Positions 2,248 to 63,700 of a stretch of DNA of 64,000 nucleotides are shown here, piece by piece. The stretch's first letter is position 1. Each line of letters begins with the position of its first letter. Position numbers and translations under genes: made by a program. The DNA is from Eledone cirrhosa (lineage: Eukaryota): assembly GCA_964016885.1 (NCBI GenBank), contig OZ024741.1, forward strand, positions 254,820,001 to 254,884,000. The letters are read 5' to 3'. Below the pieces are notes generated by a model that was given only the letters and a program-made list of their open reading frames with translations, did not search any database and had not been told where the DNA came from.

Positions 2248-2316
2248 AAAATAACAAATAGACGCGGTTTCAAATCTCTATGCTTTTCAAATTCATTACA
2301 TTAATCTTTATTTATA
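2248..2316 (-). promoter_or_regulatory. Putative minus-strand poly(A)-signal/TATA-like motif within the linker (example copy)
   Basis: The reverse complement reads TATAAATAAA (2316-2307), then CA 24 nt after AATAAA, then TATTTGTTATTTT about 20 nt further on. This is a motif match only, in AT-rich DNA, with no functional evidence. Confidence 0.25.
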
Positions 2317-2317
2317 C
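2249..2317 (+). repeat. Reference copy of the 69-bp linker (17/69 G+C)
   Basis: AAATAACAAATAGACGCGGTTTCAAATCTCTATGCTTTTCAAATTCATTACATTAATCTTTATTTATAC. It sits inside a monomer (…ACTTACGA|linker|GTTTCGCTTTACGAG…) and contains TTTCAAAT twice. Confidence 0.96.
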
Positions 2318-5300
2318 GTTTCGCTTTACGAGTGTTTCGACTTACGAGTGTTTCGACATACGAGTGTTTCGACTTACGAATGTTTTTGCTTACGGGTGTT
2401 TCGACTTACGAATGTTTTTGCTTACGAGTGTTTCGGTTTACGAGTATTCCGACTTACGAGTGTTCCGACTTGCGAGTGTTTCGGCTTACGAGTGTTTCCA
2501 GCTTACGAGTGTTTCGACTTACGAGTGTTTCGACTTACGAGTGTTTCGAATTACGAGTGTTTCGACTTACGAGTGTTTTGACTTACGGGTGTTCTGACTT
2601 ACGAGTGTTCTGACTTACAAGTGTTCTTACTTACGAGTGTTCCGACTTACGAGTGTTCCGACTTACGAGTGTTTCGGCTTACGAGTGTTTTGATTTACGA
2701 GTGTTTTGATTTACGGGTGCTTCGATGTACGCGTGTTTCGACTTACGAGTGTTTCGACTTACGAGTGTTTCGACTTACGAGTGTTTCGGCTTACGAGTGT
2801 TTTGACTTACGAATGTTTTGACTTACGATTGTTTCGGCTTACGAGTGTTTCGACTTACGAGTGTTCTGACTACGAGTGTTCTGACTGACGGGTATTCTGA
2901 CTTACGAGTGTTCCGACTTACGAGTGTTTCGGCTTATGAGTGTTTCGACTTACGAGTGCTTCGACTTACGAGTGTTTCGGCTTACGGGTGTTTCGACTTA
3001 CGAATGTTTTTGCTTACGAGTGTTTCGGCTTACAAGTGTTTCGGCTTATGAGTGTTTCGACTTACGAGTGTTTTGACTTACGGGTGTTTTGACATACGAG
3101 TGTTTCGATACGAGTGTTCTGACTTACGAGTGTTTCCGCTTACGAGTGTTTCGGCTTACGAGTGTTTCGACTTACTAATGTTTTTACTTACGAGTGTTTC
3201 GGTGTACGAGTGTTTCGACTTAAGGATGTTTCGACTTACGGGTGTTTCGGCTTACGAGTGTTTCGACTTACGAGTGTTTTGACTTACGAGTGTTCTGACT
3301 TACGAGTGTTCTGACTTATGAGTGTTCCGACTTACGAGTGTTCCGACTTACGAGTGTTTCGGCTTATGAGTGTTTCGACTGACGAGTGTTTCGGCTTACG
3401 GGTGTTTCGACGTACGAGTATTTTTGGCTTACGAGTGTTTCGACTTACGAGTGTTTTGAATTACGATTGTTTCGGCTTACGAGTGTTTCGACTTACGAGT
3501 GTTTCGACTTACGAGTGTTTCGACTTACGAGTGTTCTGACTTACGAGTGTTCTGACTTACGAGTGTTCTGACTTACGGGTGTTCTGACTTAGGTGTGTTC
3601 CGACTTACGAGTGTTTCGGCTATGGGTGTTTCGACTTACGAGTGTTTCGACTTACAAATGTTTTGGCTTACGAGTGTTTCGGCTTACGAGTGTATCGACT
3701 TACGAATGTTTTGGCTTACGAGTGTTTCGGCTTACGGGTGTTTCGACTTACGAGTGTTTCGACTTACGAGTGTTTTGACTTACGGTGTTTCGGCTTACGA
3801 GTTATTCGACATACGAGTGTTTCAACTTACGGGTGTTTCGACTTACGGGTGTTTCGACTTACGAGTGTTTCGACTTATGAGTGTTTCGACTTACGAGTGT
3901 TCTGACTTACGAGTGTTCTGACTTACGAGTGTTCCGACTTACGAGTGTTTAGGTTTACGAGTGTTTCGACACATGAGTGTTTTGACTTACGGGTGTTTCG
4001 ACTTACGGGTGTTTCGACTTACGAGTGTTTCGGCTTACGAGTGTTTCGACTTACTAATGTTTTTACTTACGAGTGTTTCGGTGTACGAGTGTTTCGACTT
4101 AAGGATGTTTCGATTTACGAGTGTCTCGACTTACGAGTGTTTCGGCTTACGTGAGTTTCGACTTAAGAGTGTTCTGATTTACGAGTGTTCTGACTTGCGG
4201 GTGTTCTGATTTACGAGTGTTCCGACTTACGAGTGTTTCGGCTTATGAGTGTTTCGACTTACGAGTGTTTCGGCTTACGAGTGTTTCGCCTTATGGGTGT
4301 TTCGACTTACGAGTGTTTTTACTTACGGTGTTTCGGCTTCCGAGTGTTTCGACATACGAGTGTTTTGACTTACGGGTGTTTCGGCTTACGAGTGTTTCGA
4401 CTTACGAGTGTTTCGGCTTACGAGTGTTTCGACTTACTAATGTTTTTACTTACGAGTGTTTCGGCGTACGAGAGTTTTGACTTACGTGTGTTTCGGCTCA
4501 CGAGTGTTTCGACTTACGAGTGTTTCGACTTACGAGTGTTTCGACTGACGAGTGTTTCGACTTACGAGTGTTTTGACTTACTGGTGTTTTGACATACGAG
4601 TGTTTCGATACGAGTGTTTCGACTTACGAGTGTTCTGACTTACGAGTGTTCTAACTTTCGAGTGTTCTGACTTATGAGTGTTCTGACTTACGAGTGTTCC
4701 GACTTACGAGTGTTTCGGCTCACGAGTGTTTCGGCTTACGAGTGTTTCGACTTACGAAAATAACAAATAGACGCGGTTTCAAATCTCTATGCTTTTCAAA
4801 TTCATTACATTAATCTTTATTTATACGTTTCGCTTTACGAGTGTTTCGACTTACGAGTGTTTCGACTTACGAGTGTTTCGGCTTACGAGTGTTTTGACTT
4901 ACGAGTGTTTTGACTTACATGTGTTTCGACTTACGCGTGTTTCGACTTACGAGTGTTTCGACTTGCGAGTGTTTCGACTACGGGTGTTTCGACTTACGAA
5001 TGTTTTGACTTACGGATGTTTTGACTTACGGGTGTTTCGGCTTACGAGTGTTTCCACTTACGAGTGTTTCGACTTGCGAGTGTTTTCACTTCGAGTGTTT
5101 TGACTTACGGTGTTTCGGCTTACGAGTGTTTCGACTTACAAGTGTTTTGACTTACGGGTGTTTTGACATACGAGTGTTTCGATACGAGTGTTCTGACTTA
5201 CGAGTGTTCTGACTTACGAGTGTTCTGACTTACGAGTGTTCTGACTTACGAGTGTTCTGACTTACGAGTGTTCTGACATACGTGTGTTCTGACTTACGAG

Positions 5301-5427
5301 TGTTCCGATTTACGAGTGTTTCGGCTTATGAGTGTTTCGACTTACGAATGTTTTTGCTTACGGGTGTTTCGACTTACGAATGTTTTTGATTACGAGTGTT
5401 TCGGCTTACGAGTGTTTCGACTTACCA

Positions 5428-5496
5428 AAATAACAAATAGACGTGGTTTCAAATCTCTATGCTTTTCAAATTCATTACATTATTCTTTATTTACAC
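5428..5496 (+). repeat. Most divergent linker copy
   Basis: ACGTGG replaces ACGCGG, TTATTC replaces TTAATC and TTTACAC replaces TTTATAC. It is preceded by CTTACCA and lacks the usual upstream CCGACTTTAC/GGCTCAC ladder. Confidence 0.9.
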
Positions 5497-8400
5497 GTTT
5501 CGCTTTACGAGTGTTTCGACTTACGAGTGTTTCGACTTACGAGTGTTTCGACTTACGAGTGTTTCGACTTACGAGTGTTTCGACTTACGAGTGTTTCGAC
5601 TTACGAGTGTTTTGACTTACGAGTGTTCTGACTTACGAGTGTTCCGACTTACGAGTGTTTCGACTTACGAGTGTTTCGACTTACGAGTGTTTCGACTTAC
5701 GAGTGTTTTGACTTACGAGTGTTCTGACTACGAGTGTTCTGACTTACGAGTGTTTCGGCTTATGAGTGTTTCGACTTACGAGTGTTTCGGCTTATAAGTG
5801 TTTCGACTTACGAGTGTTTCGGCTTACGAGTGTTTCGACTTACGAGTGTTTCGACTTACGAGTGTTTCGACTTACGGGTGTTTCGACTTACGAGTGTTTC
5901 GACTACGAGTGTTTCGACTTACGAGTGTTTCGGCATACGAGTGTTTCGACTTACGGGTGTTTCGACTTACGAGTGTTTTGGCTTACGGTGTTTCGACTTA
6001 CGAGTGTTTCGGCTTACGAGTGTTTTGACTTAAGGGTGTTTCGACTTACGAGTGTTTCGATACGAGTGTTTCGACTTACGAGTGTTTCGGCTTACGAGTG
6101 TTTCGACTTACGAGTGTTTCGACTTACGAGTGTTCTGATTTACGGATGTTTCGACATACGAGTGTTTCGACTTACGAGTGTTTCGACTTACGAGTGTTTT
6201 GACTTACGGGTGTTTTGACATACGAGTGTTTCGATACGAGTGTTTCGACTTACGAGGGTTCTGACTTACGATTGTTCTGACTTACGAGCATTCTGACTTA
6301 CTAGTGTTTCGGCTTACGAGTGTTTCGGCTTACGAGTGTTCCGACTTACGGGTGTTTCGACTTACGAGTGTTTTGGCATACGGTGTTTCGACTTACGAGT
6401 GTTTCGAGTTAAGAGTGTTAGACTTACGCGTGTTTTGACATACGAGTGTTCTGACTTACGAGTGTTCTGACTTACGAGTGTTCTGACTTACGAGTGTTCT
6501 GACTTACGAGTGTTCCGACTTTACGAGTGTTTCGGCTCACGAGTGTTTCGGCTTACGAGTGTTTCGACTTACGAAAACAACATATAGACGCGGTTTCAAA
6601 TCTCTATGCTTTTCAAATTCATTACATTAATCTTTATTTATACGTTTCGCTTTACGAGTGTTTCGACTTACGAGTGTTTCGACTTACGAGTGTTTTGACT
6701 TACGGTGTTTCGGCTTACGAGTGATTAGACTTACGAGTGTTTTGACTTACGGGTGTTTTGACTTACGGGTGTTGTGAATTACGAGTGTTCCGATTTACGA
6801 GTGTTTTGACTTACGGTGTTTCGGCTTACAAGTGATTCGACTTACGAATGTTTTGACTTACGGGTGTTTCGGCTTGCGAGTGTTTCGATCTACGAGTGTT
6901 TCGGCTTATGAGTGTTTCGACTTACTAATGTTTTTACTTACGAGTGTTTCGGCGTACGAGTGTTTCGACTTACGAGTGTTTCGACTTACGAGTGTTTTGA
7001 CTTACGAATGTTTTGACTTACGGGTGTTTCGGCTTACGAGTGTTTCGACTTACGAGTGTTTCGGCTTGCGAGTGTTTCGACTTACTAATGTTTTTACTTA
7101 CGAGTGTTTCGGCGTACGAGTGTTTCGACTTACGAGTGTTTCGACTTACGGGTGTTTTGAATTACGGGTGTTTCGGCTTACGAGTGTTTCGACTTACGAG
7201 TGTTTTGACTTAAGGGTGTTTCGACTTACGAGTGTTTCGACTTACGAGTGTTTCGAATTACGAGTGTTTCGGGTTACGAGTGTTTTGACTTGAGGGTTTT
7301 CGACTTACGAGTGTTTCGATACGAGTGTTTCGACTTACGAGTGTTCTGACTTACGAGTGTTCTGATTTACGGATGTTTTGACACACGAGTGTTTCGAATT
7401 ACGAGTGTTTCGACTTACGAGTGTTCTGACTTACGAGTGTTTCGGCTTACGAGTGTTTCCGGCTTACGAGTGTTTCGACTTACGAGTGTTTCGACTTACG
7501 AGTGTTTTGACTTACGGTGTTTCGGCTTACGAGTGATTAGACTTACGAGTGTTTTGACTTACGGGTGTTTTGACTTACGGGTGTTGTGAATTACGAGTGT
7601 TCCGATTTACGAGTGTTTTGACTTACGGTGTTTCGGCTTACAAGTGATTCGACTTACGAATGTTTTGACTTACGGGTGTTTCGGCTTGCGAGTGTTTTGA
7701 CTTACGAGTGTTTCGGCTTATGAGTGTTTCGACTTACTAATGTTTTTACTTACGAGTGTTTCGGCGTACGAGTGTTTTGACTTACGAGTGTTTCGACTTA
7801 CGAGTGTTTTGACTTACGAATGTTTTGACTTACAGGTGTTTCGGCTTACGAGTGTTTCGACTTACGAGTGTTTCGGCTTGCGAGTGTTTCGACTTACTAA
7901 TGTTTTTACTTACGAGTGTTTCGGCGTACGAGTGTTTCGACTTACGAGTGTTTCGACTTACGGGTGTTTTGACTTAGGGGTGTTTCGGCTTACGAGTGTT
8001 TCGACTTACGAGTGTTTTGACTTAAGGGTGTTTCGACTTACGAGTGTTTCGACTTACGAGTGTTTCGACTTACGGGTGTTTCGACTTACGAGTGTTTTGG
8101 CTTACGGTGTTTCGACTTACGAGTGTTTCGACTTACGAGTGTTTCGATACGAGTGTTTCGACTTACGAGTGTTTCGGCTTACGAGTGTTTCGACTTACGA
8201 GTGTTTCGACTTACGAGTGTTCTGATTTACGGATGTTTCGACATACGAGTGTTTCGACTTACGAGCGTTTCGACTTACGAGTGTTTTGACTTACGGGTGT
8301 TTTGACATACGAGTGTTTCGATACGAGTGTTTCGACTTACGAGTGTTCTGACTTACGATTGTTCTGACTTGCGAGCGTTCTGACTTACGAGTGTTTCGGC

Positions 8401-9099
8401 TTACGAGTGTTTCGGCTTACGAGAGTTTCGACTTACGAGTGTTTCGACTTACGAGTGTTCCGACTTACGGGTGTTTCGACTTACGAGTGTTTTGGCTTAC
8501 GGTGTTTCGACTTACGAGTGTTTCGAGTTAAGAGTGTTTTGACTTACGCGTGTTTTGACATACGAGTGTTCTGACTTACGAGTGTTCTGACTTACGAGTG
8601 TTCTGACTTACGAGTGTTCCGACTTTACGAGTGTTTCGGCTCACGAGTGTTTCGGCTTACGAGTGTTTCGACTTACGAAAACAACATATAGACGCGGTTT
8701 CAAATCTCTATGCTTTTCAAATTCATTACATTAATCTTTATTTATACGTTTCGCTTTACGAGTGTTTCGACTTACGAGTGTTTCGACATACGAGTGTTTC
8801 GACTTACGAATGTTTTTGCTTACGGGTGTTTCGACTTACGAATGTTTTTGCTTACGAGTGTTTCTGTTTACGAGTGTTCCGACTTACGAGTGTTTTGACT
8901 TACGGTGTTTCTGCTTACAAGTGATTCGACTTACGAATGTTTTGACTTACGGGTGTTTCGGCTTGCGAGTGTTTCGACTTACGAGTGTTTCGGCTTATGA
9001 GTGTTTCGACTTACGCGTGTTTTGACATACGAGTGTTCTGACTTACGAGTGTTCTGACTTACGAGTGTTCCGACTTTACGAGTGTTTCGGCTCACGAGT

Positions 9100-12000
9100 G
9101 TTTCGACTTAAGAGTGTTTCGACTTACGGGTGTTTCGACTTACGAGTGTTTTGGCTTACGGTGTTTCGACTTACGAGTGTTTCGGCTTACGAGTGTTTTG
9201 ACTTAAGGGTGTTTCGACTTACGAGTGTTTTGGCTTACGGTGTTTCGACTTACGAGTGTTTCGACTTACGAGTGTTTCGATACGAGTGTTTCGACTTACG
9301 AGTGTTTCGGCTTACGAGTGTTTCGACTTACGAGTGTTTCGACTTACGAGTATTCTGATTTACGGATGTTTCGACATACGAGTGTTTCGACTTACGAGTG
9401 TTTCGACTTACGAGTGTTTTGACTTACGGGTGTTTTGACATACGAGTGTTTCGATACGAGTGTTTCGACTTACGAGTGTTCTGACTTACGATTGTTCTGA
9501 CTTACGAGCGTTCTGACTTACGAGTGTTTCGGCTTACGAGTGTTTCGGCTTACGAGTGTTTCGACTTACGAGTGTTTCGACTTACGAGTGTTCCGACTTA
9601 CGGGTGTTTCGACTTACGAGTGTTTTGGCTTACGGTGTTTCGACTTACGAGTGTTTCGAGTTAAGAGTGTTTTGACTTACGAGTGTTCTGACTTTACGAG
9701 TGTTTCGGCTCACGTGTGTTTCGGCTTACGAGTGTTTCGACTTACAAAAATAACATATAGACGCGGTTTCAAATCTCTATGCTTTTCAAATTCATTACAT
9801 TAATCTTTATTTATACGTTTCGCTTTACGAGTGTTTCGACTTACGAGTGTTTCGACATACGAGTGTTTCGACTTACGAATGTTTTTGCTACGGGTGTTTC
9901 GACTTACGAATGTTTTTGCTTACAATTGTTTCGGTTTACGAGTGTTCCGACTTACGAGTGTTCCGACTTACGAGTGTTTCGGCTTACGAGTGTTTCCGGC
10001 TTACGAGTGTTTCGACTTACGAGTGTTTCGACTTACGAGTGTTTTGACTTACGGTGTTTCGGCTTACGAGTGATTAGACTTACGAGTGTTTTGACCTACG
10101 GGTGTTTTGACTTACGGGTGTTTCGGCTTACGAGTGTTTCGACTTACGAGTGTTTCGGCTTGCGAGTGTTTCGACTTACAAATGTTTTTACTTACGAGTG
10201 TTTCGGCGTACGAGTGTTTCGACTTACGAGTGTTTCGACTTACGGGTGTTTTGACTTAGGGGTGTTTCGGCTTACGAGTGTTTCGACTTACGAGTGTTTT
10301 GACTTAAAGTGTTTCGACTTACGAGTGTTTCGACTTAAGAGTGTTTCGACTTACGGGTGTTTCGACTTACGAGTGTTTTGGCTTACGGTGTTTCGACTTA
10401 CGAGTGTTTCGATACGAGTGTTTCGGCTTACGAGTGTTTTGACTTAAGGGTGTTTCGACTTACGAGTGTTTCGATACGAGTGTTTCGACTTACGAGTGTT
10501 TCGGCTTACGAGTGTTTCGACTTACGAGTGTTTCGACTTACGAGTGTTCTGATTTACGGATGTTTCGACATACGAGTGTTTCGACTTACGAGTGTTTCGA
10601 CTTACGAGTGTTCCGACTTACGGGTGTTTCGACTTACGAGTGTTTTGGCTTACGGTGTTTCGACTTACGAGTGTTTCGAGTTAAGAGTGTTTTGACTTAC
10701 GCGTGTTTTGACATACGTGTGTTCTGACTTACGAGTGTTCTGACTTACGATTGTTCTGACTTACGAGTGTTCTGACTTACGAGTGTTCTGACTTACGAGT
10801 GTTCCGACTTTACGAGTGTTTCGGCTCACGTGTGTTTCGGCTTACGAGTGTTTCGACTTACGAAAATAACATATAGACGCGGTTTCAAATCTCTATGCTT
10901 TTCAAATTCATTACATTAATCTTTATTTATACGTTTCGCTTTACGAGTGTTTCGACTTACGAGTGTTTCGACATACGAGTGTTTCGACTTACGAATGTTT
11001 TTGCTACGGGTGTTTCGACTTACGAATATTTTGCTTACGAGTGTTTCGGTTTACGAGTGTTCCGACTTACGAGTGTTCCGACTTACGAGTGTTTCGGCTT
11101 ACGAGTGTTTCCGGCTTACGAGTGTTTCGACTTACGAGTGTTTCGACTTACGAGTGTTTTGACTTACGGTGTTTCGGCTTACGAGTGATTAGACTTACGA
11201 GTGTTTTGACTTACGCGTGTTTTGACTTACGGGTGTTGTGAATTACGAGTGTTCCGATTTACGAGTGTTTCGGTTTACAAGTGTTTTGACTTACGGTGTT
11301 TCGGCTTACAAGTGATTCGACTTACGAATGTTTTGACTTACGGGTGTTTCGGCTTGCGAGTGTTTCGACTTACGAGTGTTTCGGCTTATGAGTGTTTCGA
11401 CTTACTAATGTTTTTACTTACGAGTGTTTCGGCGTACGAGTGTTTTGACTTACGGGTGTTTCGGCTTATGAGTGTTGCGACTTACGAGTGTTTCGGCTTG
11501 CGAGTTTTTAGACTTACTAATGTTTTTACTTACAAGTGTTTCGGCGTACGAGTGTTTCGACTTACGAGTGTTTCGACTTACGGGTGTTTTGACTTACGGG
11601 TGTTTCGGCTTACGAGTGTTTCGACTTACGAGTGTTTTGACTTACGGGTGTTTCGACTTACGAGTGTTTCGACTTACGAGTGTTTCGACTTACGAGTGTT
11701 CTGACTTACGAGTGTTTTGACTTGAGGGTTTTCGGCTTACGAGTGTTTCGAGTTACGAGTGTTTTGACTTACGCGTGTTTTGACATACGAGTGTTTCGAT
11801 ACGAGTGTTCTGACTTACGAGTGTTCTGACTTACGAGTGTTCTGACTTACGAGTGTTCCGACTTTACGAGTGTTTCGGCTCACGAGTGTTTCGGCTTACG
11901 AGTGTTTCGACTTACGAAAATAACAAATAGACGCGGTTTCAAATCTCTATGCTTTTCAAATTCATTACATTAATCTTTATTTATACGTTTCGCTTTACGA

Positions 12001-50190: not shown

Positions 50191-52137
50191 TGTTTTAACT
50201 TACGAGTGTTCTGACTTACGAGTGTTCTGACTTACGAGTGTTCCGACTTACGACTGTTTCGACTTACGAGTGTTTTGACTTACGAGTGTTCCGACTTACG
50301 AGTGTTTCGGCTTACGGGTGTTTCGACGTACGAGTATTTTTGGCTTACGAGTGTTCCGACTTACGAGTGTCTCGGCTTACGAGTGTTTCGGCTTACGAGT
50401 GTTTCGACTTACGAGTGTTTCGACTTACGAGTGTTCCGACTTACGGGTGTTTCGACTTACGAGTGTTTTGGCTTACGGTGTTTCGACTTACGAGTGTTTC
50501 GGCTTACGAGTGTTTTGACTTAAGGGTGTTTCGACTTACGAGTGTTTCGATACGAGTGTTTCGACTTACGAGTGTTTCGGCTTACGAGTGTTTCGACTTA
50601 CGAGTGTTTCGACTTACGAGTGTTCTGATTTACGGATGTTTCGACATACGAGTGTTTCGACTTACGAGTGTTTCGACTTACGAGTGTTTTGACTTACGTG
50701 TGTTTTGACATACGAGTGTTTCGATACGAGTGTTTCGACTTACGATTGTTCTGACTTACGATTGTACTGACTTACGAGCGTTCTGGCTTACGAGTGTTTC
50801 GGCTTACGAGTGTTTCGGCTTACGAGTGTTTCGACTTACGAGTGTTTCGACTTACGAGTGTTCCGACTTACGGGTGTTTCGACTTACGAGTGTTTTAGCT
50901 TACGGTGTTTAGACTTACGGGTGTTTCGAGTTAAGAGTGTTTTGACTTACGCGTGTTTTGACATACGAGTGTTCTGACTTACGAGTGTTCTGACTTACGA
51001 GTGTTCTGACTTACGAGTGTTCCGACTTTACGAGTGTTTCGGCTCACGAGTGTTTCGGCTTACGAGTGTTTCCTCTTACGAAAATAACAAATAGACGCGG
51101 TTTCAAATCTCTATGCTTTTCAAATTCATTACATTAATCTTTATTTATACGTTTCGCTTTACGAGTGTTTCGACTTACGAGTGTTTCGACATACGAGTGT
51201 TTCGACTTACGAACGTTTTTGCTTACGGGTGTTTCGACTTACGAATGTTTTTGCTTACGAGTGTTTCGGTTTACGAGTGTTCCGACTTACGAGTGTTCCG
51301 ACTTACGAGTGTTTCGGCTTACGAGTGTTTCCGGCTTACGAGTGTTTCGACTTACGAGTGTTTCGACTTACGAGTGTTTTGACTTACGGTGTTTCGGCTT
51401 ACGAGTGATTAGACTTACGAGTGTTTTGACTTACGGGTGTTTTGACTTACGGGTGTTGTGAATTACGAGTGTTCCGATTTACGAGTGTTTTGACTTACGG
51501 TGTTTCGGCTTACAAGTGATTCGACTTACGAATGTTTTGACTTACGGGTGTTTCGGCTTGCGAGTATTTCGACTTACGAGTGTTTCGGCTTATGAGTGTT
51601 TCGACTTACTAATGTTTTTACTTACGAGTGTTTCGGCGTACGAGTGTTTTGACTTACGAGTGTTTCGACTTACGAGTGTTTTGACTTACGAATGTTTTGA
51701 CTTACGGGTGTTTCGGCTTACGAGTGTTTCGACTTACGAGTGTTTCGGCTTGCGAGTGTTTCGACTTACTAATGTTTTTACTTACGAGTGTTTCGGCGTA
51801 CGAGTGTTTCGACTTACGAGTGTTTCGACTTACGGGTGTTTTGACTTACGAGTGTTCTGACTTACGAGTGTTCTGATTTACGGATGTTTCGACACACGAG
51901 TGTTTCGAATTACGAGTGTTTCGACTTACAAGTGTTTTGGCTTACGGTGTTTCGGCTTACAAGTGTTTCGAGTTACGAGTGTTTTGACTTACGCGTGTTT
52001 TGACATACGAGTGTTTCGATACGAGTGTTCTGACTTACGAGTGTTCTGACTTACGAGTGTTCTGACTTACGAGTGTTCCGACTTTACGAGTGTTTCGGCT
52101 CACGAGTGTTTCGGCTTACGAGTGTTTCGACTTACGA

Positions 52138-55100
52138 AAATAACAAATAGACGCGGTTTCAAATCTCTATGCTTTTCAAATTCATTACATTAATCTTTTT
52201 TTATACGTTTCGCTTTACGAGTGTTTCGACTTACGAGTGTTTCGACATACGAGTGTTTCGGCTTACGAGTGTTTTGATTTACGAGTGTTTTGACTTACGG
52301 GTGCTTCGACTTACGCGTGTTTCGACTTACGTGTGTTTCGACTTACGAGTGTGTCGACTTACGAGTGTTTCGGCTGGCGAGTGTTTCGACTTACGAGTGT
52401 TTTGACTTAAGGGTGTTTCGACTTACGAGTGTTTCGACTTACGAGTGTTTCGGCGTACGAGTGTTTTGACTTACGAGTGTTTCGACTTACGCGTGTTTTG
52501 ACTTACGAATGTTTTGACTTACGAGTGTTTCGGCTTGCGAGTGTTTCGACTTACTAATGTTTTTACTTACGAGTGTTTCGGCGTACGAGTGTTTCGACTT
52601 ACGAGTGTTTCGACTTACGGGTGTTTTGACTTACGGGTGTTTCGGCTTACGAGTGTTTCGACTTACGAGTGTTTTGACTTAAGGGTGTTTCGACTTACGA
52701 GTGTTTCGACTTAGGAGTAATTTGACTTACGGGTGTTTTGACATACGAGTGTTTCGATACGAGTGTTTCGACTTACGAGTGTTCTGACTTACGAGTGTTC
52801 TGACTTACGAGTGTTCTGACTTACAAGTGTTCTTACTTACGAGTGTTCCGACTTACGAGTGTTCCGACTTACGAGTGTTTCGGCTTACGAATGTTTCGAC
52901 TTACGAGTGTTTCGACTTACGAGTGTTCCGACTTACGGGTGTTTCGACTTACGAGTGTTTTGGCTTACGGTGTTTCGGCTTACGAGTGTTTCGAGTTACG
53001 AGTGTTTTGACTTACGCGTGTTTTGACATACGAGTGTTTCGATACGAGTGTTCTGACTTACGAGTGTTCTGCCTTACGAGTGTTCTGACTTACGAGTGTT
53101 CTGACTTACGAGTGTTCCGACTTTACGAGTGTTTCGGCTCACGAGTGTTTCGGCTTACGAGTGTTTCGACTTACGAAAATAACAAATAGACGCGGTTTCA
53201 AATCTCTATGCTTTTCAAATTCATTACATTAATCTTTATTTATACGTTTCGCTTTACGAGTGTTTCGACTTACGAGTGTTTCGACATACGAGTGTTTCGG
53301 CTTACGAGTGTTTTGATTTACCAGTGTTTTGACTTACGGGTGCTTCGACTTACGCGTGTTTCGAATTACGAGTGTTTCGACTTACGAGTGTTTCGGCTTA
53401 CGAGTGTTTTGACTTACGAATGTTTTGACTTACGATTGTTTCGGCTTACGAGTGTTTCGACTTACGAGTGTTCTGACTACGAGTGTTCTGACTTACGGGT
53501 GTTCTGACTTACGAGTGTTCCGACTTACGAGTGTTTCGGCTTATGAGTGTTTCGACTGACGAGTGTTCTGACTACGAGTGTTTCGACTTACGAGTGTTCT
53601 GACTACGAGTGTTCTGACTTACGGGTGTTCTGACTTACGAGTGTTCCGACTTACGAGTGCTTCGACTTACGAGTGTTTCGGCTTACGGGTGTTTCGACGT
53701 ACGAATGTTTTTGCTTACGAGTGTTTCGGCTTACGAGTGTTTCGGCTTATGAGTGTTTCGACTTACGAGTGTTTTGACTTACGGGTGTTTTGACATACGA
53801 GTGTTTCGATACGAGTGTTCTGACTTACGAGTGTTTCCGCTTACGAGTGTTTCGGCTTACGAGTGTTGCGACTTACTAATGTTTTTACTTACGAGTGTTT
53901 CGGTGTAAGAGTGTTTCGACTTAACGATGTTTTGACTTACGAGTGTTTCGACTTACGAGTGTTTCGACTTACGATTGTTCCGACTTACGAGTGTTTCGGC
54001 TTATGAGTGTTTCGACTTACGGGCGTTTCGACTTACGGGTGTTTCGACTTACGAGTGTTTAGGCTTATGAGTGTTTCGATTTACGAGTGTTTTGACTTAC
54101 GGGTGTTTTGACATACGAGTGTTTCGATACGAGTGTTCTGACTTACGAGTGTTTCCGCTTACGAGTGTTTCGGCTTACGAGTGTTTCGACTTACTAATGT
54201 TTTTACTTACGAGTGTTTCGGTGTAAGAGTGTTTCTACTTAACGATGTTTCGACTTACGAGTGTTTCGACTTACGAGTGTTTCGACTTACGAGTGTTCCG
54301 ACTTACGAGTGTTTCGGCATATGAGTGTTTCGACTTACGGGCGTTTCGACTTACGGGTGTTTCGACTTACGAGTGTTTTGACTTACGAGTATTCTGACTT
54401 ACCAGTGTTCTGACTTACGAGTGTTCCGACTTACGACTGTTTCGACTTACGAGTGTTTTGACTTACGAGTGTTCCGACTTACGAGTGTTTCGGCTTACGG
54501 GTGTTTCGACGTACGAGTATTTTTGGCTTACGAGTGTTCCGACTTACGAGTGTCTCGGCTTACGAGTGTTTCGGCTTACGAGTGTTTCGACTTACAAGTG
54601 TTTCGACTTACGAGTGTTCCGACTTACGTGTGTTTCGACTTACGAGTGTTTTGGCTTACGGTGTTTCGACTTACGAGTGTTTCGGCTTACGAGTGTTTTG
54701 ACTTAAGGGTGTTTCGACTTACGAGTGTTTCGATACGAGTGTTTCGACTTACGAGTGTTTCGGCTTACGAGTGTTTCGACTTACGAGTGTTTCGACTTAC
54801 GAGTGTTCTGATTTACGGATGTTTCGACATACGAGTGTTTCGACTTACGAGTGTTTCGACTTACGAGTGTTTTGACTTACGTGTGTTTTGACATACGAGT
54901 GTTTCGATACGAGTGTTTCGACTTACGATTGTTCTGACTTACGATTGTACTGACTTACGAGCGTTCTGACTTACGAGTGTTTCGGCTTACGAGTGTTTCG
55001 GCTTACAAGTGTTCTTACTTACGAGTGTTCCGACTTACGGGTGTTTCGACTTACGAGTGTTTTGGCTTACGGTGTTATGGCTTACGAGTGTTTCGAGTTA

Positions 55101-58100
55101 CGAGTGTTTTGACTTACGCGTGTTTTGACATACGAGTGTTTCGATACGAGTGTTCTGACTTACGAGTGTTCTGCCTTACGAGTGTTCTGACTTACGAGTG
55201 TTCTGACTTACGAGTGTTCCGACTTTACGAGTGTTTCGGCTCACGAGTGTTTCGGCTTACGAGTGTTTCGACTTACGAAAATAACAAATAGACGCGGTTT
55301 CAAATCTCTATGCTTTTCAAATTCATTACATTAATCTTTATTTATACGTTTCGCTTTACGAGTGTTTCGACTTACGAGTGTTTCGACATACGAGTGTTTC
55401 GACTTACGAATGTTTTTGCTTACGGGTGTTTCGACTTACGAATGTTTTTGCTTACGAGTGTTTCGGTTTACGAGTGTTCCGACTTACGAGTGTTCCGACT
55501 TACGAGTGTTTCGGCTTACGAGTGTTTCCGGCTTACGAGTGTTTCGACTTACGAGTGTTTCGACTTACGAGTGTTTTGACTTACGGTGTTTCGGCTTAAG
55601 AGTGATTAGACTTACGAGTGTTTTGACTTACGGGTGTTTAGACTTACGGGTGTTGTGAATTACGAGTGTTCCGATTTACGAGTGTTTTGACTTACGGTGT
55701 TTCGGCTTACAAGTGATTCGACTTACGAATGTTTTGACTTACGGGTGTTTCGGCTTGCGAGTATTTCGACTTACGAGTGTTTCGGCTTATGAGTGTTTCG
55801 ACTTACTAATGTTTTTACTTACGAGTGTTTCGGCGTACGAGTGTTTTGACTTACGAGTGTTTCGACTTACGAGTGTTTTGACTTACGAATGTTTTGACTT
55901 ACGGGTGTTTCGGCTTACGAGTGTTTCGACTTACGAGTGTTTCGGCTTGCGAGTGTTTCGACTTACTAATGTTTTTACTTACGAGTGTTTCGGCGTACGA
56001 GTGTTTCGACTTACGAGTGTTTCGACTTACGGGTGTTTTGACTTACGGGTGTTTCGGCTTACGAGTGTTTCGACTTACGAGTGTTTTGACTTAAGGGTGT
56101 TTCGACTTACGAGTGTTTCGACTTAGGAGTGTTTTGACTTACGGGTGTTTTGACATACGAGTGTTCCGACTTACGAGTGTTCCGACTTACGAGTGTTTCG
56201 GCTTACGAATGTTTCGACTTACGAGTGTTTCGACTTACGAGTGTTCCGACATACGGGTGTTTCGACTTACGAGTGTTTTGGCTTACGGTGTTTCGGCTTA
56301 CGAGTGTTTCGAGTTACGAGTGTTTTGACTTACGCGTGTTTTGACATACGAGTGTTTCGATACGAGTGTTCTGACTTACGAGTGTTCTGACTTACGAGTG
56401 TTCTGACTTACGAGTGTTCCGACTTTACGAGTGTTTCGGCTCACGAGTGTTTCGGCTTACGAGTGTTTCGACTTACGAAAATAACAAATAGACGCGGTTT
56501 CAAATCTCTATGCTTTTCAAATTCATTACATTAATCTTTATTTATACGTTTCGCTTTACGAGTGTTTCGACTTACGAGTGTTTCGACATACGAGTGTTTC
56601 GGCTTACGAGTGTTTTGATTTACGAGTGTTTTGACTTACGGGTGCTTCGACTTACGCGTGTTTCGACTTACGTGTGTTTCGACTTACGAGTGTGTCGACT
56701 TACGAGTGTTTCGGCTGGCGAGTGTTTCGACTTACGAGTGTTTTGACTTAAGGGTGTTTCGACTTACGAGTGTTTCGACTTACGAGTGTTTCGGCGTACG
56801 AGTGTTTTGACTTACGAGTGTTTCGACTTACGCGTGTTTTGACTTACGAATGTTTTGACTTACGAGTGTTTCGGCTTGCGAGTGTTTCGACTTACTAATG
56901 TTTTTACTTACGAGTGTTTCGGCGTACGAGTGTTTCGACTTACGAGTGTTTCGACTTACGGGTGTTTTGACTTACGGGTGTTTCGGCTTACGAGTGTTTC
57001 GACTTACGAGTGTTTTGACTTAAGGGTGTTTCGACTTACGAGTGTTTCGACTTAGGAGTAATTTGACTTACGGGTGTTTTGACATACGAGTGTTTCGATA
57101 CGAGTGTTTCGACTTACGAGTGTTCTGACTTACGAGTGTTCTGACTTACGAGTGTTCTGACTTACAAGTGTTCTTACTTACGAGTGTTCCGACTTACGAG
57201 TGTTCCGACTTACGAGTGTTTCGGCTTACGAATGTTTCGACTTACGAGTGTTTCGACTTACGAGTGTTCCGACTTACGGGTGTTTCGACTTACGAGTGTT
57301 TTGGCTTACGGTGTTTCGGCTTACGAGTGTTTCGAGTTACGAGTGTTTTGACTTACGCGTGTTTTGACATACGAGTGTTTCGATACGAGTGTTCTGACTT
57401 ACGAGTGTTCTGCCTTACGAGTGTTCTGACTTACGAGTGTTCTGACTTACGAGTGTTCCGACTTTACGAGTGTTTCGGCTCACGAGTGTTTCGGCTTACG
57501 AGTGTTTCGACTTACGAAAATAACAAATAGACGCGGTTTCAAATCTCTATGCTTTTCAAATTCATTACATTAATCTTTATTTATACGTTTCGCTTTACGA
57601 GTGTTTCGACTTACGAGTGTTTCGACATACGAGTGTTTCGGCTTACGAGTGTTTTGATTTACCAGTGTTTTGACTTACGGGTGCTTCGACTTACGCGTGT
57701 TTCGAATTACGAGTGTTTCGACTTACGAGTGTTTCGGCTTACGAGTGTTTTGACTTACGAATGTTTTGACTTACGATTGTTTCGGCTTACGAGTGTTTCG
57801 ACTTACGAGTGTTCTGACTACGAGTGTTCTGACTTACGGGTGTTCTGACTTACGAGTGTTCCGACTTACGAGTGTTTCGGCTTATGAGTGTTTCGACTTA
57901 CGAGTGTTCTGACTACGAGTGTTTCGACTTACGAGTGTTCTGACTACGAGTGTTCTGACTTACGGGTGTTCTGACTTACGAGTGTTCCGACTTACGAGTG
58001 CTTCGACTTACGAGTGTTTCGGCTTACGGGTGTTTCGACGTACGAATGTTTTTGCTTACGAGTGTTTCGGCTTACGAGTGTTTCGGCTTATGAGTGTTTC

Positions 58101-60730
58101 GACTTACGAGTGTTTTGACTTACGGGTGTTTTGACATACGAGTGTTTCGATACGAGTGTTCTGACTTACGAGTGTTTCCGCTTACGAGTGTTTCGGCTTA
58201 CGAGTGTTGCGACTTACTAATGTTTTTACTTACGAGTGTTTCGGTGTAAGAGTGTTTCGACTTAACGATGTTTTGACTTACGAGTGTTTCGACTTACGAG
58301 TGTTTCGACTTACGATTGTTCCGACTTACGAGTGTTTCGGCTTATGAGTGTTTCGACTTACGGGCGTTTCGACTTACGGGTGTTTCGACTTACGAGTGTT
58401 TAGGCTTATGAGTGTTTCGATTTACGAGTGTTTTGACTTACGGGTGTTTTGACATACGAGTGTTTCGATACGAGTGTTCTGACTTACGAGTGTTTCCGCT
58501 TACGAGTGTTTCGGCTTACGAGTGTTTCGACTTACTAATGTTTTTACTTACGAGTGTTTCGGTGTAAGAGTGTTTCTACTTAACGATGTTTCGACTTACG
58601 AGTGTTTCGACTTACGAGTGTTTCGACTTACGAGTGTTCCGACTTACGAGTGTTTCGGCATATGAGTGTTTCGACTTACGGGCGTTTCGACTTACGGGTG
58701 TTTCGACTTACGAGTGTTTTGACTTACGAGTATTCTGACTTACCAGTGTTCTGACTTACGAGTGTTCCGACTTACGACTGTTTCGACTTACGAGTGTTTT
58801 GACTTACGAGTGTTCCGACTTACGAGTGTTTCGGCTTACGGGTGTTTCGACGTACGAGTATTTTTGGCTTACGAGTGTTCCGACTTACGAGTGTCTCGGC
58901 TTACGAGTGTTTCGGCTTACGAGTGTTTCGACTTACAAGTGTTTCGACTTACGAGTGTTCCGACTTACGTGTGTTTCGACTTACGAGTGTTTTGGCTTAC
59001 GGTGTTTCGACTTACGAGTGTTTCGGCTTACGAGTGTTTTGACTTAAGGGTGTTTCGACTTACGAGTGTTTCGATACGAGTGTTTCGACTTACGAGTGTT
59101 TCGGCTTACGAGTGTTTCGACTTACGAGTGTTTCGACTTACGAGTGTTCTGATTTACGGATGTTTCGACATACGAGTGTTTCGACTTACGAGTGTTTCGA
59201 CTTACGAGTGTTTTGACTTACGTGTGTTTTGACATACGAGTGTTTCGATACGAGTGTTTCGACTTACGATTGTTCTGACTTACGATTGTACTGACTTACG
59301 AGCGTTCTGACTTACGAGTGTTTCGGCTTACGAGTGTTTCGGCTTACAAGTGTTCTTACTTACGAGTGTTCCGACTTACGGGTGTTTCGACTTACGAGTG
59401 TTTTGGCTTACGGTGTTATGGCTTACGAGTGTTTCGAGTTACGAGTGTTTTGACTTACGCGTGTTTTGACATACGAGTGTTTCGATACGAGTGTTCTGAC
59501 TTACGAGTGTTCTGCCTTACGAGTGTTCTGACTTACGAGTGTTCTGACTTACGAGTGTTCCGACTTTACGAGTGTTTCGGCTCACGAGTGTTTCGGCTTA
59601 CGAGTGTTTCGACTTACGAAAATAACAAATAGACGCGGTTTCAAATCTCTATGCTTTTCAAATTCATTACATTAATCTTTATTTATACGTTTCGCTTTAC
59701 GAGTGTTTCGACTTACGAGTGTTTCGACATACGAGTGTTTCGACTTACGAATGTTTTTGCTTACGGGTGTTTCGACTTACGAATGTTTTTGCTTACGAGT
59801 GTTTCGGTTTACGAGTGTTCCGACTTACGAGTGTTCCGACTTACGAGTGTTTCGGCTTACGAGTGTTTCCGGCTTACGAGTGTTTCGACTTACGAGTGTT
59901 TCGACTTACGAGTGTTTTGACTTACGGTGTTTCGGCTTAAGAGTGATTAGACTTACGAGTGTTTTGACTTACGGGTGTTTAGACTTACGGGTGTTGTGAA
60001 TTACGAGTGTTCCGATTTACGAGTGTTTTGACTTACGGTGTTTCGGCTTACAAGTGATTCGACTTACGAATGTTTTGACTTACGGGTGTTTCGGCTTGCG
60101 AGTATTTCGACTTACGAGTGTTTCGGCTTATGAGTGTTTCGACTTACTAATGTTTTTACTTACGAGTGTTTCGGCGTACGAGTGTTTTGACTTACGAGTG
60201 TTTCGACTTACGAGTGTTTTGACTTACGAATGTTTTGACTTACGGGTGTTTCGGCTTACGAGTGTTTCGACTTACGAGTGTTTCGGCTTGCGAGTGTTTC
60301 GACTTACTAATGTTTTTACTTACGAGTGTTTCGGCGTACGAGTGTTTCGACTTACGAGTGTTTCGACTTACGGGTGTTTTGACTTACGGGTGTTTCGGCT
60401 TACGAGTGTTTCGACTTACGAGTGTTTTGACTTAAGGGTGTTTCGACTTACGAGTGTTTCGACTTAGGAGTGTTTTGACTTACGGGTGTTTTGACATACG
60501 AGTGTTCCGACTTACGAGTGTTCCGACTTACGAGTGTTTCGGCTTACGAATGTTTCGACTTACGAGTGTTTCGACTTACGAGTGTTCCGACTTACGGGTG
60601 TTTCGACTTACGAGTGTTTTGGCTTACGGTGTTTCGGCTTACGAGTGTTTCGAGTTACGAGTGTTTTGACTTACGCGTGTTTTGACATACGAGTGTTTCG
60701 ATACGAGTGTTCTGACTTACGAGTGTTCTG
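52138..60730 (+). repeat. Tandem 4341-bp higher-order repeat (B/C hybrid 1039 + D' 2102 + A' 1200)
   Basis: ORF-track entries recur at exactly +4341 (52169/56510, 53208/57549, 54421/58762, 55310/59651). Rare variants GTGTGTCGAC and TTAGGAGTAATTTGAC are shared. Confidence 0.92.
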
Positions 60731-63700
60731 CCTTACGAGTGTTCTGACTTACGAGTGTTCTGACTTACGAGTGTTCCGACTTTACGAGTGTTTCGGCTCA
60801 CGAGTGTTTCGGCTTACGAATGTTTCGACTTACGAAAATAACAAATAGACGCGGTTTCAAATCTCTATGCTTTTCAAATTCATTACATTAATCTTTATTT
60901 ATACGTTTCGCTTTACGAGTGTTTCGACTTACGAGTGTTTCGACATACGAGTGTTTCGGCTTACGAGTGTTTTGATTTACCAGTGTTTTGACTTACGGGT
61001 GCTTCGACTTACGCGTGTTTCGAATTACGAGTGTTTCGACTTACGAGTGTTTCGGCTTACGAGTGTTTTGACTTACGAATGTTTTGACTTACGATTGTTT
61101 CGGCTTACGAGTGTTTCGACTTACGAGTGTTCTGACTACGAGTGTTCTGACTTACGGGTGTTCTGACTTACGAGTGTTCCGACTTACGAGTGTTTCGGCT
61201 TATGAGTGTTTCGACTTACGAGTGTTCTGACTACGAGTGTTTCGACTTACGAGTGTTCTGACTACGAGTGTTCTGACTTACGGGTGTTCTGACTTACGAG
61301 TGTTCCGACTTACGAGTGCTTCGACTTACGAGTGTTTCGGCTTACGGGTGTTTCGACGTACGAATGTTTTTGCTTACGAGTGTTTCGGCTTACGAGTGTT
61401 TCGGCTTATGAGTGTTTCGACTTACGAGTGTTTTGACTTACGGGTGTTTTGACATACGAGTGTTTCGATACGAGTGTTCTGACTTACGAGTGTTTCCGCT
61501 TACGAGTGTTTCGGCTTACGAGTGTTGCGACTTACTAATGTTTTTACTTACGAGTGTTTCGGTGTAAGAGTGTTTCGACTTAACGATGTTTTGACTTACG
61601 AGTGTTTCGACTTACGAGTGTTTCGACTTACGATTGTTCCGACTTACGAGTGTTTCGGCTTATGAGTGTTTCGACTTACGGGCGTTTCGACTTACGGGTG
61701 TTTCGACTTACGAGTGTTTAGGCTTATGAGTGTTTCGATTTACGAGTGTTTTGACTTACGGGTGTTTTGACATACGAGTGTTTCGATACGAGTGTTCTGA
61801 CTTACGAGTGTTTCCGCTTACGAGTGTTTCGGCTTACGAGTGTTTCGACTTACTAATGTTTTTACTTACGAGTGTTTCGGTGTAAGAGTGTTTCTACTTA
61901 ACGATGTTTCGACTTACGAGTGTTTCGACTTACGAGTGTTTCGACTTACGAGTGTTCCGACTTACGAGTGTTTCGGCATATGAGTGTTTCGACTTACGGG
62001 CGTTTCGACTTACGGGTGTTTCGACTTACGAGTGTTTTGACTTACGAGTATTCTGACTTACCAGTGTTCTGACTTACGAGTGTTCCGACTTACGACTGTT
62101 TCGACTTACGAGTGTTTTGACTTACGAGTGTTCCGACTTACGAGTGTTTCGGCTTACGGGTGTTTCGACGTACGAGTATTTTTGGCTTACGAGTGTTCCG
62201 ACTTACGAGTGTCTCGGCTTACGAGTGTTTCGGCTTACGAGTGTTTCGACTTACAAGTGTTTCGACTTACGAGTGTTCCGACTTACGTGTGTTTCGACTT
62301 ACGAGTGTTTTGGCTTACGGTGTTTCGACTTACGAGTGTTTCGGCTTACGAGTGTTTTGACTTAAGGGTGTTTCGACTTACGAGTGTTTCGATACGAGTG
62401 TTTCGACTTACGAGTGTTTCGGCTTACGAGTGTTTCGACTTACGAGTGTTTCGACTTACGAGTGTTCTGATTTACGGATGTTTCGACATACGAGTGTTTC
62501 GACTTACGAGTGTTTCGACTTACGAGTGTTTTGACTTACGTGTGTTTTGACATACGAGTGTTTCGATACGAGTGTTTCGACTTACGATTGTTCTGACTTA
62601 CGATTGTACTGACTTACGAGCGTTCTGACTTACGAGTGTTTCGGCTTACGAGTGTTTCGGCTTACAAGTGTTCTTACTTACGAGTGTTCCGACTTACGGG
62701 TGTTTCGACTTACGAGTGTTTTGGCTTACGGTGTTATGGCTTACGAGTGTTTCGAGTTACGAGTGTTTTGACTTACGCGTGTTTTGACATACGAGTGTTT
62801 CGATACGAGTGTTCTGACTTACGAGTGTTCTGCCTTACGAGTGTTCTGACTTACGAGTGTTCTGACTTACGAGTGTTCCGACTTTACGAGTGTTTCGGCT
62901 CACGAGTGTTTCGGCTTACGAGTGTTTCGACTTACGAAAATAACAAATAGACGCGGTTTCAAATCTCTATGCTTTTCAAATTCATTACATTAATCTTTAT
63001 TTATACGTTTCGCTTTACGAGTGTTTCGACTTACGAGTGTTTCGACATACGAGTGTTTCGACTTACGAATGTTTTTGCTTACGGGTGTTTCGACTTACGA
63101 ATGTTTTTGCTTACGAGTGTTTCGGTTTACGAGTGTTCCGACTTACGAGTGTTCCGACTTACGAGTGTTTCGGCTTACGAGTGTTTCCGGCTTACGAGTG
63201 TTTCGACTTACGAGTGTTTCGACTTACGAGTGTTTTGACTTACGGTGTTTCGGCTTAAGAGTGATTAGACTTACGAGTGTTTTGACTTACGGGTGTTTAG
63301 ACTTACGGGTGTTGTGAATTACGAGTGTTCCGATTTACGAGTGTTTTGACTTACGGTGTTTCGGCTTACAAGTGATTCGACTTACGAATGTTTTGACTTA
63401 CGGGTGTTTCGGCTTGCGAGTATTTCGACTTACGAGTGTTTCGGCTTATGAGTGTTTCGACTTACTAATGTTTTTACTTACGAGTGTTTCGGCGTACGAG
63501 TGTTTTGACTTACGAGTGTTTCGACTTACGAGTGTTTTGACTTACGAATGTTTTGACTTACGGGTGTTTCGGCTTACGAGTGTTTCGACTTACGAGTGTT
63601 TCGGCTTGCGAGTGTTTCGACTTACTAATGTTTTTACTTACGAGTGTTTCGGCGTACGAGTGTTTCGACTTACGAGTGTTTCGACTTACGGGTGTTTTGA

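What the first reader, a model, noticed from the sequence alone, without database searches (positions are those of the whole stretch)
2249..63006. Composite 'punctuated' satellite: an invariant 69-bp AT-rich linker every 0.7-2.7 kb within a 16-bp array
Seen: 45 copies of one unrelated 69-bp sequence (25% GC versus 44% for the monomer consensus), all at the same point in the monomer and in the same orientation. I saw no length change in any copy and at most 3 substitutions, while the monomer tracts between linkers vary about 4-fold in length and belong to clearly different block types. No gap between linkers is shorter than 670 bp or longer than 2662 bp. Inference: the true unit is [linker + variable minisatellite tract]. 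The linker could be a functional landmark (protein-binding site, nucleosome-free gap, origin or transcription signal) or a passenger from the element or flank that founded the array.
Basis: partly seen in the sequence, partly recalled or inferred. Interest (0 to 1): 0.8.

Follow-up and report, generated by a model that had tools for sequence, protein, structure and literature searches.

The report
Helitron remnant riding its own satellite
The 69-bp 'linker' is a piece from near the start of a small dispersed element with Helitron-type ends; that element's internal 16-bp repeat likely grew into a satellite of an estimated 7 Mb and likely carried the piece along as a passenger, since the piece is no better conserved than the repeats touching it and its spacing runs from 0.24 to 68 kb outside this window.

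Summary
Observation confirmed: 45 linkers, 0-3 substitutions, one joint, spacing 670-2662 bp. The functional reading is not supported. The linker is about nt 61-129 of a non-autonomous Helitron-like module (5' TC, linker, 2-6 copies of the 16-mer, hairpin-CTAG), found at 20 of 20 dispersed C1 sites. The 329-kb array holding the window begins with this module's 5' end. A complete copy on C4 holds 3 linkers and about 124 monomers. One monomer|linker joint was copied to 2139 places. Linker divergence equals that of adjacent monomer bases (89/9108 vs 50/5280). In the same array spacing runs 386-67,946 bp; 27 of 90 intervals outside the window break the claimed bounds. The module's 3' end punctuates other sub-arrays the same way. 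A neutral model reproduces regular spacing when exchange needs local identity, not otherwise. Helitron-born satellites are known; the nested punctuation, size and preserved intermediates are a variant. Unexplained: expanded tracts are 6-8% from the ancestral monomers, against about 1% for all other parts of the element.

The parts
1..64000 (+). 16-bp minisatellite array, the middle part of a 329-kb array (C2:254,735,084-255,064,225) that begins with the element's 5' end 85 kb upstream of the window and ends against a second, 36-39-bp satellite
   Evidence: TRF; array ends; 226 distinct monomer variants among 3583 parsed
2249..63006 (+). 45 linkers of 69 bp, starting at 2249, 4758, 5428, 6575, 8679, 9748, 10864, 11918, 13101, 13869, 15655, 16823, 17878, 19250, 20352, 21371, 22554, 23257, 25361, 26529, 27584, 28368, 29740, 30861, 32044, 32828, 34591, 36012, 38114, 39330, 41432, 42648, 45310, 46462, 47645, 48429, 51082, 52138, 53177, 55279, 56479, 57518, 59620, 60836, 62938; each is about nt 61-129 of the Helitron-like module
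   Evidence: positions; match to the module's 5' part
2248..2252 (+). Monomer|linker joint (example copy): a monomer is joined into the A-run at about nt 60 of the element, with one shared A; the 5' TC terminus is left out of the repeat unit
   Evidence: array start vs joint; same joint in other arrays; 2139 genome-wide, control 1
2201..2357 (+). Conserved island (example copy): linker plus about 3 monomers upstream and 8 bp plus 2 monomers downstream, copied as one block
   Evidence: 0-1.7% divergence from -48 to +109 across 45 copies, rising to 14-25% beyond +125
35644..43768 (+). Higher-order repeat, period 3318 bp (2102 + 1216), 99.4% identical over 4807 bp
51896..60770 (+). Higher-order repeat, period 4341 bp, 99.7% identical over 4534 bp
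14406..27891 (+). Pair of duplicated blocks 9706 bp apart, 99.5% identical over 3780 bp

Best explanation
The linker is the 5'-subterminal part of a dispersed, non-coding element with Helitron-type ends, and it was likely carried as a passenger when that element's internal 16-bp repeat likely expanded into a multi-megabase satellite. Step 1 (shown): a module of about 514 bp with 2-6 monomers behind the linker lies dispersed in the genome, fused with similar modules into composite Helitron-like elements. Step 2 (inferred): in one lineage the tract grew to tens of monomers. Step 3 (joint shown, single origin inferred): one break-and-join event linked a monomer to about nt 60 of the element, making [linker + tract] a tandem unit without the TC terminus. 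Step 4 (duplicates shown, mechanism inferred): unequal exchange between near-identical blocks built higher-order repeats, keeping spacing regular where exchange was in register and producing linker-free deserts where it was not. Step 5 (inferred): pieces spread by segmental duplication on C2, by ectopic insertion to C1 without element ends, and in the C4 case possibly by transposition of a whole composite. The origin of the linker is close to certain; the stated confidence covers direction and mechanism as well.
For: 20 of 20 dispersed C1 sites with the exact linker core are the module: TC start 65-69 bp before the linker in 20, hairpin-CTAG end found in 18. The array starts with the module's 5' end. 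Only 4 array-type 5' starts exist: three on C2 share their flank, one is on C4. The C4 copy is complete: 2644 bp, 3 linkers, about 124 monomers, inside a 4310-bp composite bounded A|TC...CTAG|T. A 4-kb array with 6 linkers ends in the module's 3' end. Both dispersed 5' types have short tracts, and 6 of 6 array-linked 3' ends carry a derived base that 0 of 23 dispersed copies carry, so short is likely ancestral. Linker vs adjacent 40 monomer bases: 18/3105 vs 18/1800 in the window, 89/9108 vs 50/5280 in 132 linkers of the array. Spacing 386-67,946 bp in the array, 243 bp in another. The module's 3' end is a second passenger: 89 of the 100 listed hits (102 in all) lie inside the C2 domain. A neutral model requiring 3-8 matching monomers gave max/min spacing of 4 or less in 93-100% of scored windows, and also arrays that lost nearly all linkers.
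Against: A neutral model without a homology rule gave 0 of 174 windows as regular as this one, and both models have free parameters. Among 24 dispersed copies the linker outside the search key is less diverged than the rest of the element (5/908 vs 114/8696, p=0.056). In 72 linkers outside the array the downstream 24 bases vary more than the linker (72/1728 vs 71/4968), though the upstream 16 do not (13/1152). Expanded tracts lie 6.0-8.3% from the two ancestral monomer types while unique parts and dispersed tracts lie near 1%, which plain expansion at a uniform rate does not explain. No empty target site was found, and 0 of 6 RepHel loci examined share the module's ends.
Confidence: 0.72

Rival explanations
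1. The monomer pool is older than the element family. A young Helitron-like copy recombined with, or was cut down from, an older long tract, so the linker is a young intruder in an old satellite. It is still a passenger, but the direction is reversed.
For: Monomers in expanded tracts are 6-8% from the ancestral types, against 1.1% (10/928) in dispersed tracts and 4/378 in the C4 element's unique DNA. Linker-free stretches of 10-68 kb exist. Such hybrids are proposed for oyster (PMC8268682, passages).
Against: Both dispersed 5' types have 1-6 monomers. No stand-alone tract appears in the first 279 Mb of C1. The 65-kb linker-free stretch has fewer variants (159 vs 219) and shares 31 of its 32 common variants with the window, as expected of a derivative. 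Tracts in three duplicated array starts already differ about 4 times more than their flank (28/1866 vs 17/4383).
Confidence: 0.12
2. The array is a rolling-circle concatemer made by Helitron transposase from a circle that had lost its 3' terminator, as proposed for plant centromeric Helitrons.
For: Many 5'-side pieces and far fewer 3' ends (2139 joints vs 102 array-type 3' hits). The genome holds at least 150 Helitron Rep matches. The mechanism is described in PMC12628747 (passages).
Against: Units do not start at the 5' TC; about the first 60 nt are missing from every joint. Tract lengths and types vary widely, and duplications are nested at many periods, which fits stepwise exchange. The C1 array has no element end on either side.
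Confidence: 0.1
3. The linker is a selected landmark (protein site, nucleosome gap, origin) whose sequence and spacing are maintained.
For: The window covers the most regular part of the array (CV 0.36-0.39 vs 0.44-1.13 elsewhere). The linker is 75% AT. There is a borderline deficit of changes among dispersed copies.
Against: Not more conserved than touching monomers. Spacing 243 bp to 68 kb. 16 linker haplotypes in one array, and more joints (2139) than exact 30-bp cores (1541, dispersed copies included). Another piece of the same element punctuates neighbouring sub-arrays.
Confidence: 0.05
4. The pattern is an assembly artefact.
For: Highly repetitive region; exact copy numbers and order cannot be checked here.
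Against: Contigs of public runs from four other studies bridge the joint (X4, X5, X6; X8), and run X1 shows the joint as well. Copies carry nested private variants.
Confidence: 0.01

Closest known systems
Oyster Cg_HINE / Helitron-N elements with central satellite repeats, e.g. Cg170/HindIII (PMC7492417, PMC8268682; abstracts and passages seen)
   Same: Non-autonomous rolling-circle-type element: 5' flank with a GTCT-type microsatellite, a conserved segment, central tandem repeats in fixed orientation, 3' palindrome; element-linked and stand-alone arrays coexist.
   Different: Oyster monomers are 140-180 bp, arrays are mostly short and scattered, and Cg_HINE have subTIRs. Here the monomer is 16 bp, ends are TC/CTAG, and the arrays reach hundreds of kb with the flank segment repeated inside them.
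Tandem arrays of truncated Helitrons in plant centromeres (Xiong et al. 2016; seen only as described in the review PMC12628747)
   Same: Many 5'-side pieces, few 3' ends, up to hundreds of units.
   Different: Here the unit omits the 5' terminus and about 95% of it is a variable-length minisatellite with higher-order structure.
Meloidogyne centromeric holo-units: repeat arrays separated by non-autonomous Helitrons (PMC13404089; abstract and passages seen)
   Same: Short-repeat arrays of up to about 2 kb alternating with Helitron-derived spacers over hundreds of kb.
   Different: There the spacers are mainly 1.5-3.5 kb with Helitron end features and the repeats are tied to CenH3. Here the spacer is a 69-bp internal fragment, the repeat lies inside the element itself, and centromere status is untested.
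Xenopus Heli2Xen minisatellites (PMC12001565, passages) and Drosophila DINE-TR1 (Dias et al. 2015; title seen in a reference list, content recalled)
   Same: A Helitron as birthplace and carrier of a tandem repeat.
   Different: Heli2Xen arrays are 2-7 copies of 166 bp; no periodic retention of a flank piece was seen in the passages read.

Membership tests
Canonical Helitron (non-autonomous) | 5' TC terminus | tested here: met
   20 of 20 dispersed modules; C4 composite. Feature list from PMC4067079 passages.
Canonical Helitron (non-autonomous) | 3' CTRR terminus | tested here: met
   CTAG in 18 of 20 modules (not found in L018, L026) and at the C4 composite end.
Canonical Helitron (non-autonomous) | 16-20-nt palindrome about 11 bp before the 3' end | tested here: inconclusive
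   Module: 18-nt arms, 94% complementary, but the stem includes the terminal CTAG, with no spacer. C4 composite end: weak 16-nt hairpin (-4.4 kcal/mol) about 12 nt from the end.
Canonical Helitron (non-autonomous) | Insertion between A and T without target duplication | tested here: inconclusive
   C4 composite is flanked A|...|T. Modules are followed by T in 18 of 18 but preceded by A in only 6 of 20, being fused into composites. No empty site in the part of the 40-kb flank comparison that was shown.
Canonical Helitron (non-autonomous) | Autonomous RepHel partner with the same ends | tested here: inconclusive
   150 scored PF14214 matches of 3704 candidates; 0 of 6 long-ORF loci examined have the module's ends at their own ends.
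Helentron / HINE / DINE-1 | Subterminal inverted repeats near both ends | tested here: not met
   None of 16 inverted pairs in one module joins the 5' and 3' subterminal regions (1 copy tested).
Helentron / HINE / DINE-1 | TT target site | tested here: not met
   C4 composite flanks are A and T (1 site).
Rolling-circle tandem Helitron array | Units begin at the element's 5' end | tested here: not met
   All 45 window joints enter at about nt 60; only 4 array-type 5' starts genome-wide.
Centromeric satellite | CENP-A occupancy | not testable with these tools
   No chromatin data.
Centromeric satellite | One large block per chromosome | tested here: inconclusive
   An 8.3-Mb mixed-satellite domain on C2 and one 97-kb array among other satellites on C1. 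Listings stop at 100 places, so other chromosomes were not mapped for monomers.
Centromeric satellite | CENP-B-box-like motif (recalled consensus) | tested here: not met
   0 matches on either strand of the window; the box is not expected outside some mammals (recalled).
Selected functional spacer | Lower divergence than linked flanking bases | tested here: not met
   89/9108 vs 50/5280, p=0.93; borderline in dispersed copies.
Selected functional spacer | Constrained spacing | tested here: not met
   386-67,946 bp in one array.

The most novel reading that the evidence does not exclude
The linker, as the Helitron's own 5'-subterminal segment, is still recognised by RepHel or a host factor and seeds amplification. 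The transposon thereby built about 7 Mb of satellite in the time its other sequences changed by 1%, by error-prone synthesis that left expanded tracts 5-8 times more mutated than the same element's unique DNA, and this satellite now forms the centromere of chromosome C2.
Probability: 0.08. Interest if true: 0.75.

Novelty: new variant of a known kind. Interest (0 to 1): 0.36.

Why it matters
As a functional landmark the finding falls. What remains is an unusually complete record of satellite birth in one genome: copies with 1-6 monomers, a whole element with about 124 monomers and 3 linkers, a 4-kb array, a 97-kb array without ends, and a multi-Mb domain, all tied by one joint and shared derived changes. 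The linker and the 3' end serve as internal clocks. They show expanded tracts 5-8 times further from their ancestor than the DNA beside them, which makes a standing question testable: whether tandem-repeat expansion is itself mutagenic, or whether the repeat pool is older than its carrier.

Tried and rejected
Search for array 3' ends by an exact run of three monomers plus the 3' flank: 1 hit only, too strict. A short variant monomer first seen at array 3' ends is no end marker: 611 hits, and only 1 of 30 loci examined has an element end. Repeated exact-core hits at C2:86.7 Mb are not an array; the 4 examined are short-tract modules. Linker as homologue of the neighbouring module's 5' region: alignment score 27.5, reached by 28% of 500 shuffles, so not shown. 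Rfam on one dispersed locus: 0 matches. Autonomous partner: not found in 6 loci. Empty site for the C4 insertion: not seen nearby. Unbiased sample of dispersed linkers through the 3' key: only 4 of 30 loci carry the linker, too few. Public runs: no RNA holder listed. Runs labelled as other organisms hold the joint and window-type variants at depth 2.5-10 with 0-2 differences in X4, X5, X6 and X8, and 6 differences plus 5 gaps in the X7 contig; X4, X5 and X8 do not cover the module's 5' end outside its microsatellite. I read this as probable trace carry-over and do not use it as evidence of cross-species conservation. Earlier findings: none for this genome. A cephalopod host was guessed from a recalled SINE likeness, was not tested, and its literature search gave nothing on this repeat. 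Searches for an identical punctuated architecture found none in their listings; subscription journals are not covered and no supplements were read.
Full report
OBSERVATION. The window is one 16-bp array. An ungapped scan finds 45 copies of the 69-mer with 0-3 substitutions, and nothing else within 38 mismatches on either strand; spacing is 670-2662 bp. The window lies at C2:254,820,001-254,884,000 of a 3.0-Gb genome.

PARENT ELEMENT. A 30-bp linker core has 1541 exact matches genome-wide, control 0. I fetched all 20 dispersed C1 matches in that listing. In 20 of 20 the linker lies 65-69 bp behind a TC start with a GTCT-type microsatellite and is followed by 2-6 monomers; in 18 of 20 a hairpin ending in CTAG follows, giving a module of 482-735 bp, most often 514. 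The modules are fused head to tail with similar modules into composites. Scaling C1 gives roughly 135 dispersed copies (inference). The 3' half is shared with a larger family: 720 exact hits, of which 4 of 30 examined carry the linker. The genome holds at least 150 Helitron Rep matches, but none of 6 examined shares the module's ends. The element therefore works like a non-autonomous Helitron; membership is likely, with target site and partner unproven.

FROM ELEMENT TO ARRAY. The array containing the window runs from C2:254,735,084 to 255,064,225 and holds 135 linkers. It begins with the module's own 5' end, minus the first 8 bases. That 5' type lacks 8 bases present in most dispersed copies and occurs 4 times. 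Three are on C2 with a shared flank (17 substitutions in about 4385 bases in each of two comparisons). The fourth, at C4:114.05 Mb, is a complete 2644-bp module with 3 linkers and about 124 monomers inside a 4310-bp composite bounded A|TC...CTAG|T. A 4-kb array at C2:240.96 Mb has 6 linkers and the module's 3' end. A 97-kb array on C1 has no element end and sits between two other satellites. The joint is the same in all regions sampled and occurs 2139 times. It enters the element at about nt 60 with one shared base, so the unit lacks the TC terminus. Polarity: a sibling 5' type also has three monomers in its 5 full copies among 10 hits, and 6 of 6 array-linked 3' ends carry a base found in 0 of 23 dispersed copies, 5 of the 6 also a 16-bp deletion. 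Short tracts are thus likely ancestral. The monomer pattern has 187,765 matches, about 7.0 Mb when scaled by its density in the window. Monomers were found in probes from 254.74 to 263.01 Mb of C2 (10 of 14 roughly evenly spread probes) and in none of 6 probes from 263.25 to 266 Mb.

IS THE LINKER SPECIAL? Conservation: in the window the linker differs from its consensus at 18 of 3105 bases, the 40 touching monomer bases at 18 of 1800 (p=0.12). Over 132 of the 135 linkers (the native first copy and two with a 1-bp deletion left out) the figures are 89/9108 and 50/5280 (p=0.93). Copies are related, so these p-values are descriptive. What is conserved is an island from about -48 to +109, including rare monomer variants upstream, which decays with distance as expected for linked DNA. 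Two results lean the other way: among 24 dispersed copies the linker outside the search key is at 5/908 against 114/8696 for the rest (p=0.056), and in 72 linkers outside the array the downstream 24 bases vary more (72/1728) than the linker (71/4968), though the upstream 16 do not (13/1152).

Spacing: 386-6041 bp upstream of the window, 548-67,946 bp downstream; 27 of 90 outside intervals break the claimed bounds; 243 bp occurs at C2:240.96 Mb. Sliding windows show that this one covers the most regular part. Its intervals come from multi-kb duplications at 99.4-99.7% identity. A neutral model with breakpoints anywhere gave 0 of 174 windows this regular. When exchange required matching monomers, max/min was 4 or less in 9-15% of 110 windows for one match and in 93-100% of 140 windows for 3-8 matches, while many simulated arrays lost nearly all linkers; only windows with 10 or more linkers were scored, and two of eight settings gave none. 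This shows sufficiency, not proof. Finally, the module's 3' end with part of its neighbour punctuates other sub-arrays: 89 of 100 listed hits lie at C2 256.6-261.7 Mb, many 2-6 kb apart. Whatever unique DNA touched the tract was amplified with it.

WHAT IS NOT EXPLAINED. Monomers lie 7.1% (first unit), 6.2% (C4), 6.0% (240.96 Mb) and 8.3% (window) from the two ancestral types, and non-CpG sites alone 4.8-6.7%. Dispersed tracts lie at 1.1% (10/928) and the C4 element's unique DNA at 4/378 from a dispersed copy. Array-linked 3' ends are 0.5% from their own consensus (28/5697), and tracts of the duplicated starts differ about 4 times more than their flank. Amplified variants are counted many times, so the excess is an average over related copies. 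Either expanded tracts mutate several times faster, or the monomer pool is older than its carrier. A 4.1-fold excess of variation is reported for human centromeres (PMC11062924, passages), but that would not spare the linker.

REAL DNA. Contigs of public runs bridge the joint (X4, X5, X6; X8 and X1), so it is not an assembly product. Their meaning for other species is unclear.

COMPARISON. Satellites arising from Helitron central repeats are described as common (review PMC12628747, passages), with cases in oyster (PMC7492417, PMC8268682; passages) and Xenopus (PMC12001565, passages). Arrays alternating with Helitron-derived spacers form Meloidogyne centromeric regions (PMC13404089, abstract and passages). 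Four searches for this exact architecture listed no match, judged from titles and abstract openings only.

VERDICT. Real, correctly described, and explained as a transposon remnant in a satellite born from that transposon. New variant of a known kind. Interest 0.36, carried by the preserved intermediates and the tract-versus-linker divergence gap, not by a function of the linker.

Noticed in passing
L052, L049, window: Expanded monomer tracts are 6-8% from the ancestral monomers, while the same element's unique DNA and dispersed short tracts are near 1%.
   Followed up: partly
L037-L039, L041, L045, L235, L242, L246 (C2 254.3-260.2 Mb): A second satellite of 36-39 bp with internal TGT triplets interleaves with the 16-mer arrays; 12,263 exact hits, none on C1, first at C2:254.307 Mb.
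   Followed up: partly
L234 (C2:254.30 Mb) and L090 (C1:279.39 Mb): The same AT-rich 11-bp-based satellite borders both the C2 domain and the C1 array, suggesting related satellite blocks on two chromosomes.
   Followed up: no
L250, L251, L143, L089: Further satellites of 57, 97 and 18 bp at C2 263.25, 263.5 and 266 Mb, and one of about 23 bp at C1:279.29 Mb.
   Followed up: no
L046, L101, L149-L173: Sub-arrays punctuated by the module's 3' end plus part of the next module (insert of about 830 bp in L101), a second passenger.
   Followed up: partly
L009-L028, L174-L203: Helitron-like modules are stacked head to tail (CTAG followed at once by the next TC in most), and new 5' ends are inserted at several different points of one composite, also into a sibling's linker.
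   Followed up: partly
C20:3.5-5.2 Mb, C27:13.1-15.5 Mb, C16:0.5-0.8 Mb, C19:35-40 Mb: The best Helitron Rep matches cluster on small chromosomes, many about 100-130 kb apart with the same 362-aa open frame, which suggests Helitron genes inside very large tandem units.
   Followed up: no
L222-L223 (C2:315.526 Mb): An uninterrupted 1718-aa frame over a Helitron Rep match, a candidate intact autonomous Helitron.
   Followed up: partly
C2 258.9-259.9 Mb (L046, L047, L243-L245): About 1 Mb of the 16-mer satellite lies on the opposite strand within the domain.
   Followed up: no
public runs X4-X8: Runs labelled as five other organisms hold the joint or window-type variants at trace depth; probably carry-over, not resolved.
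   Followed up: partly
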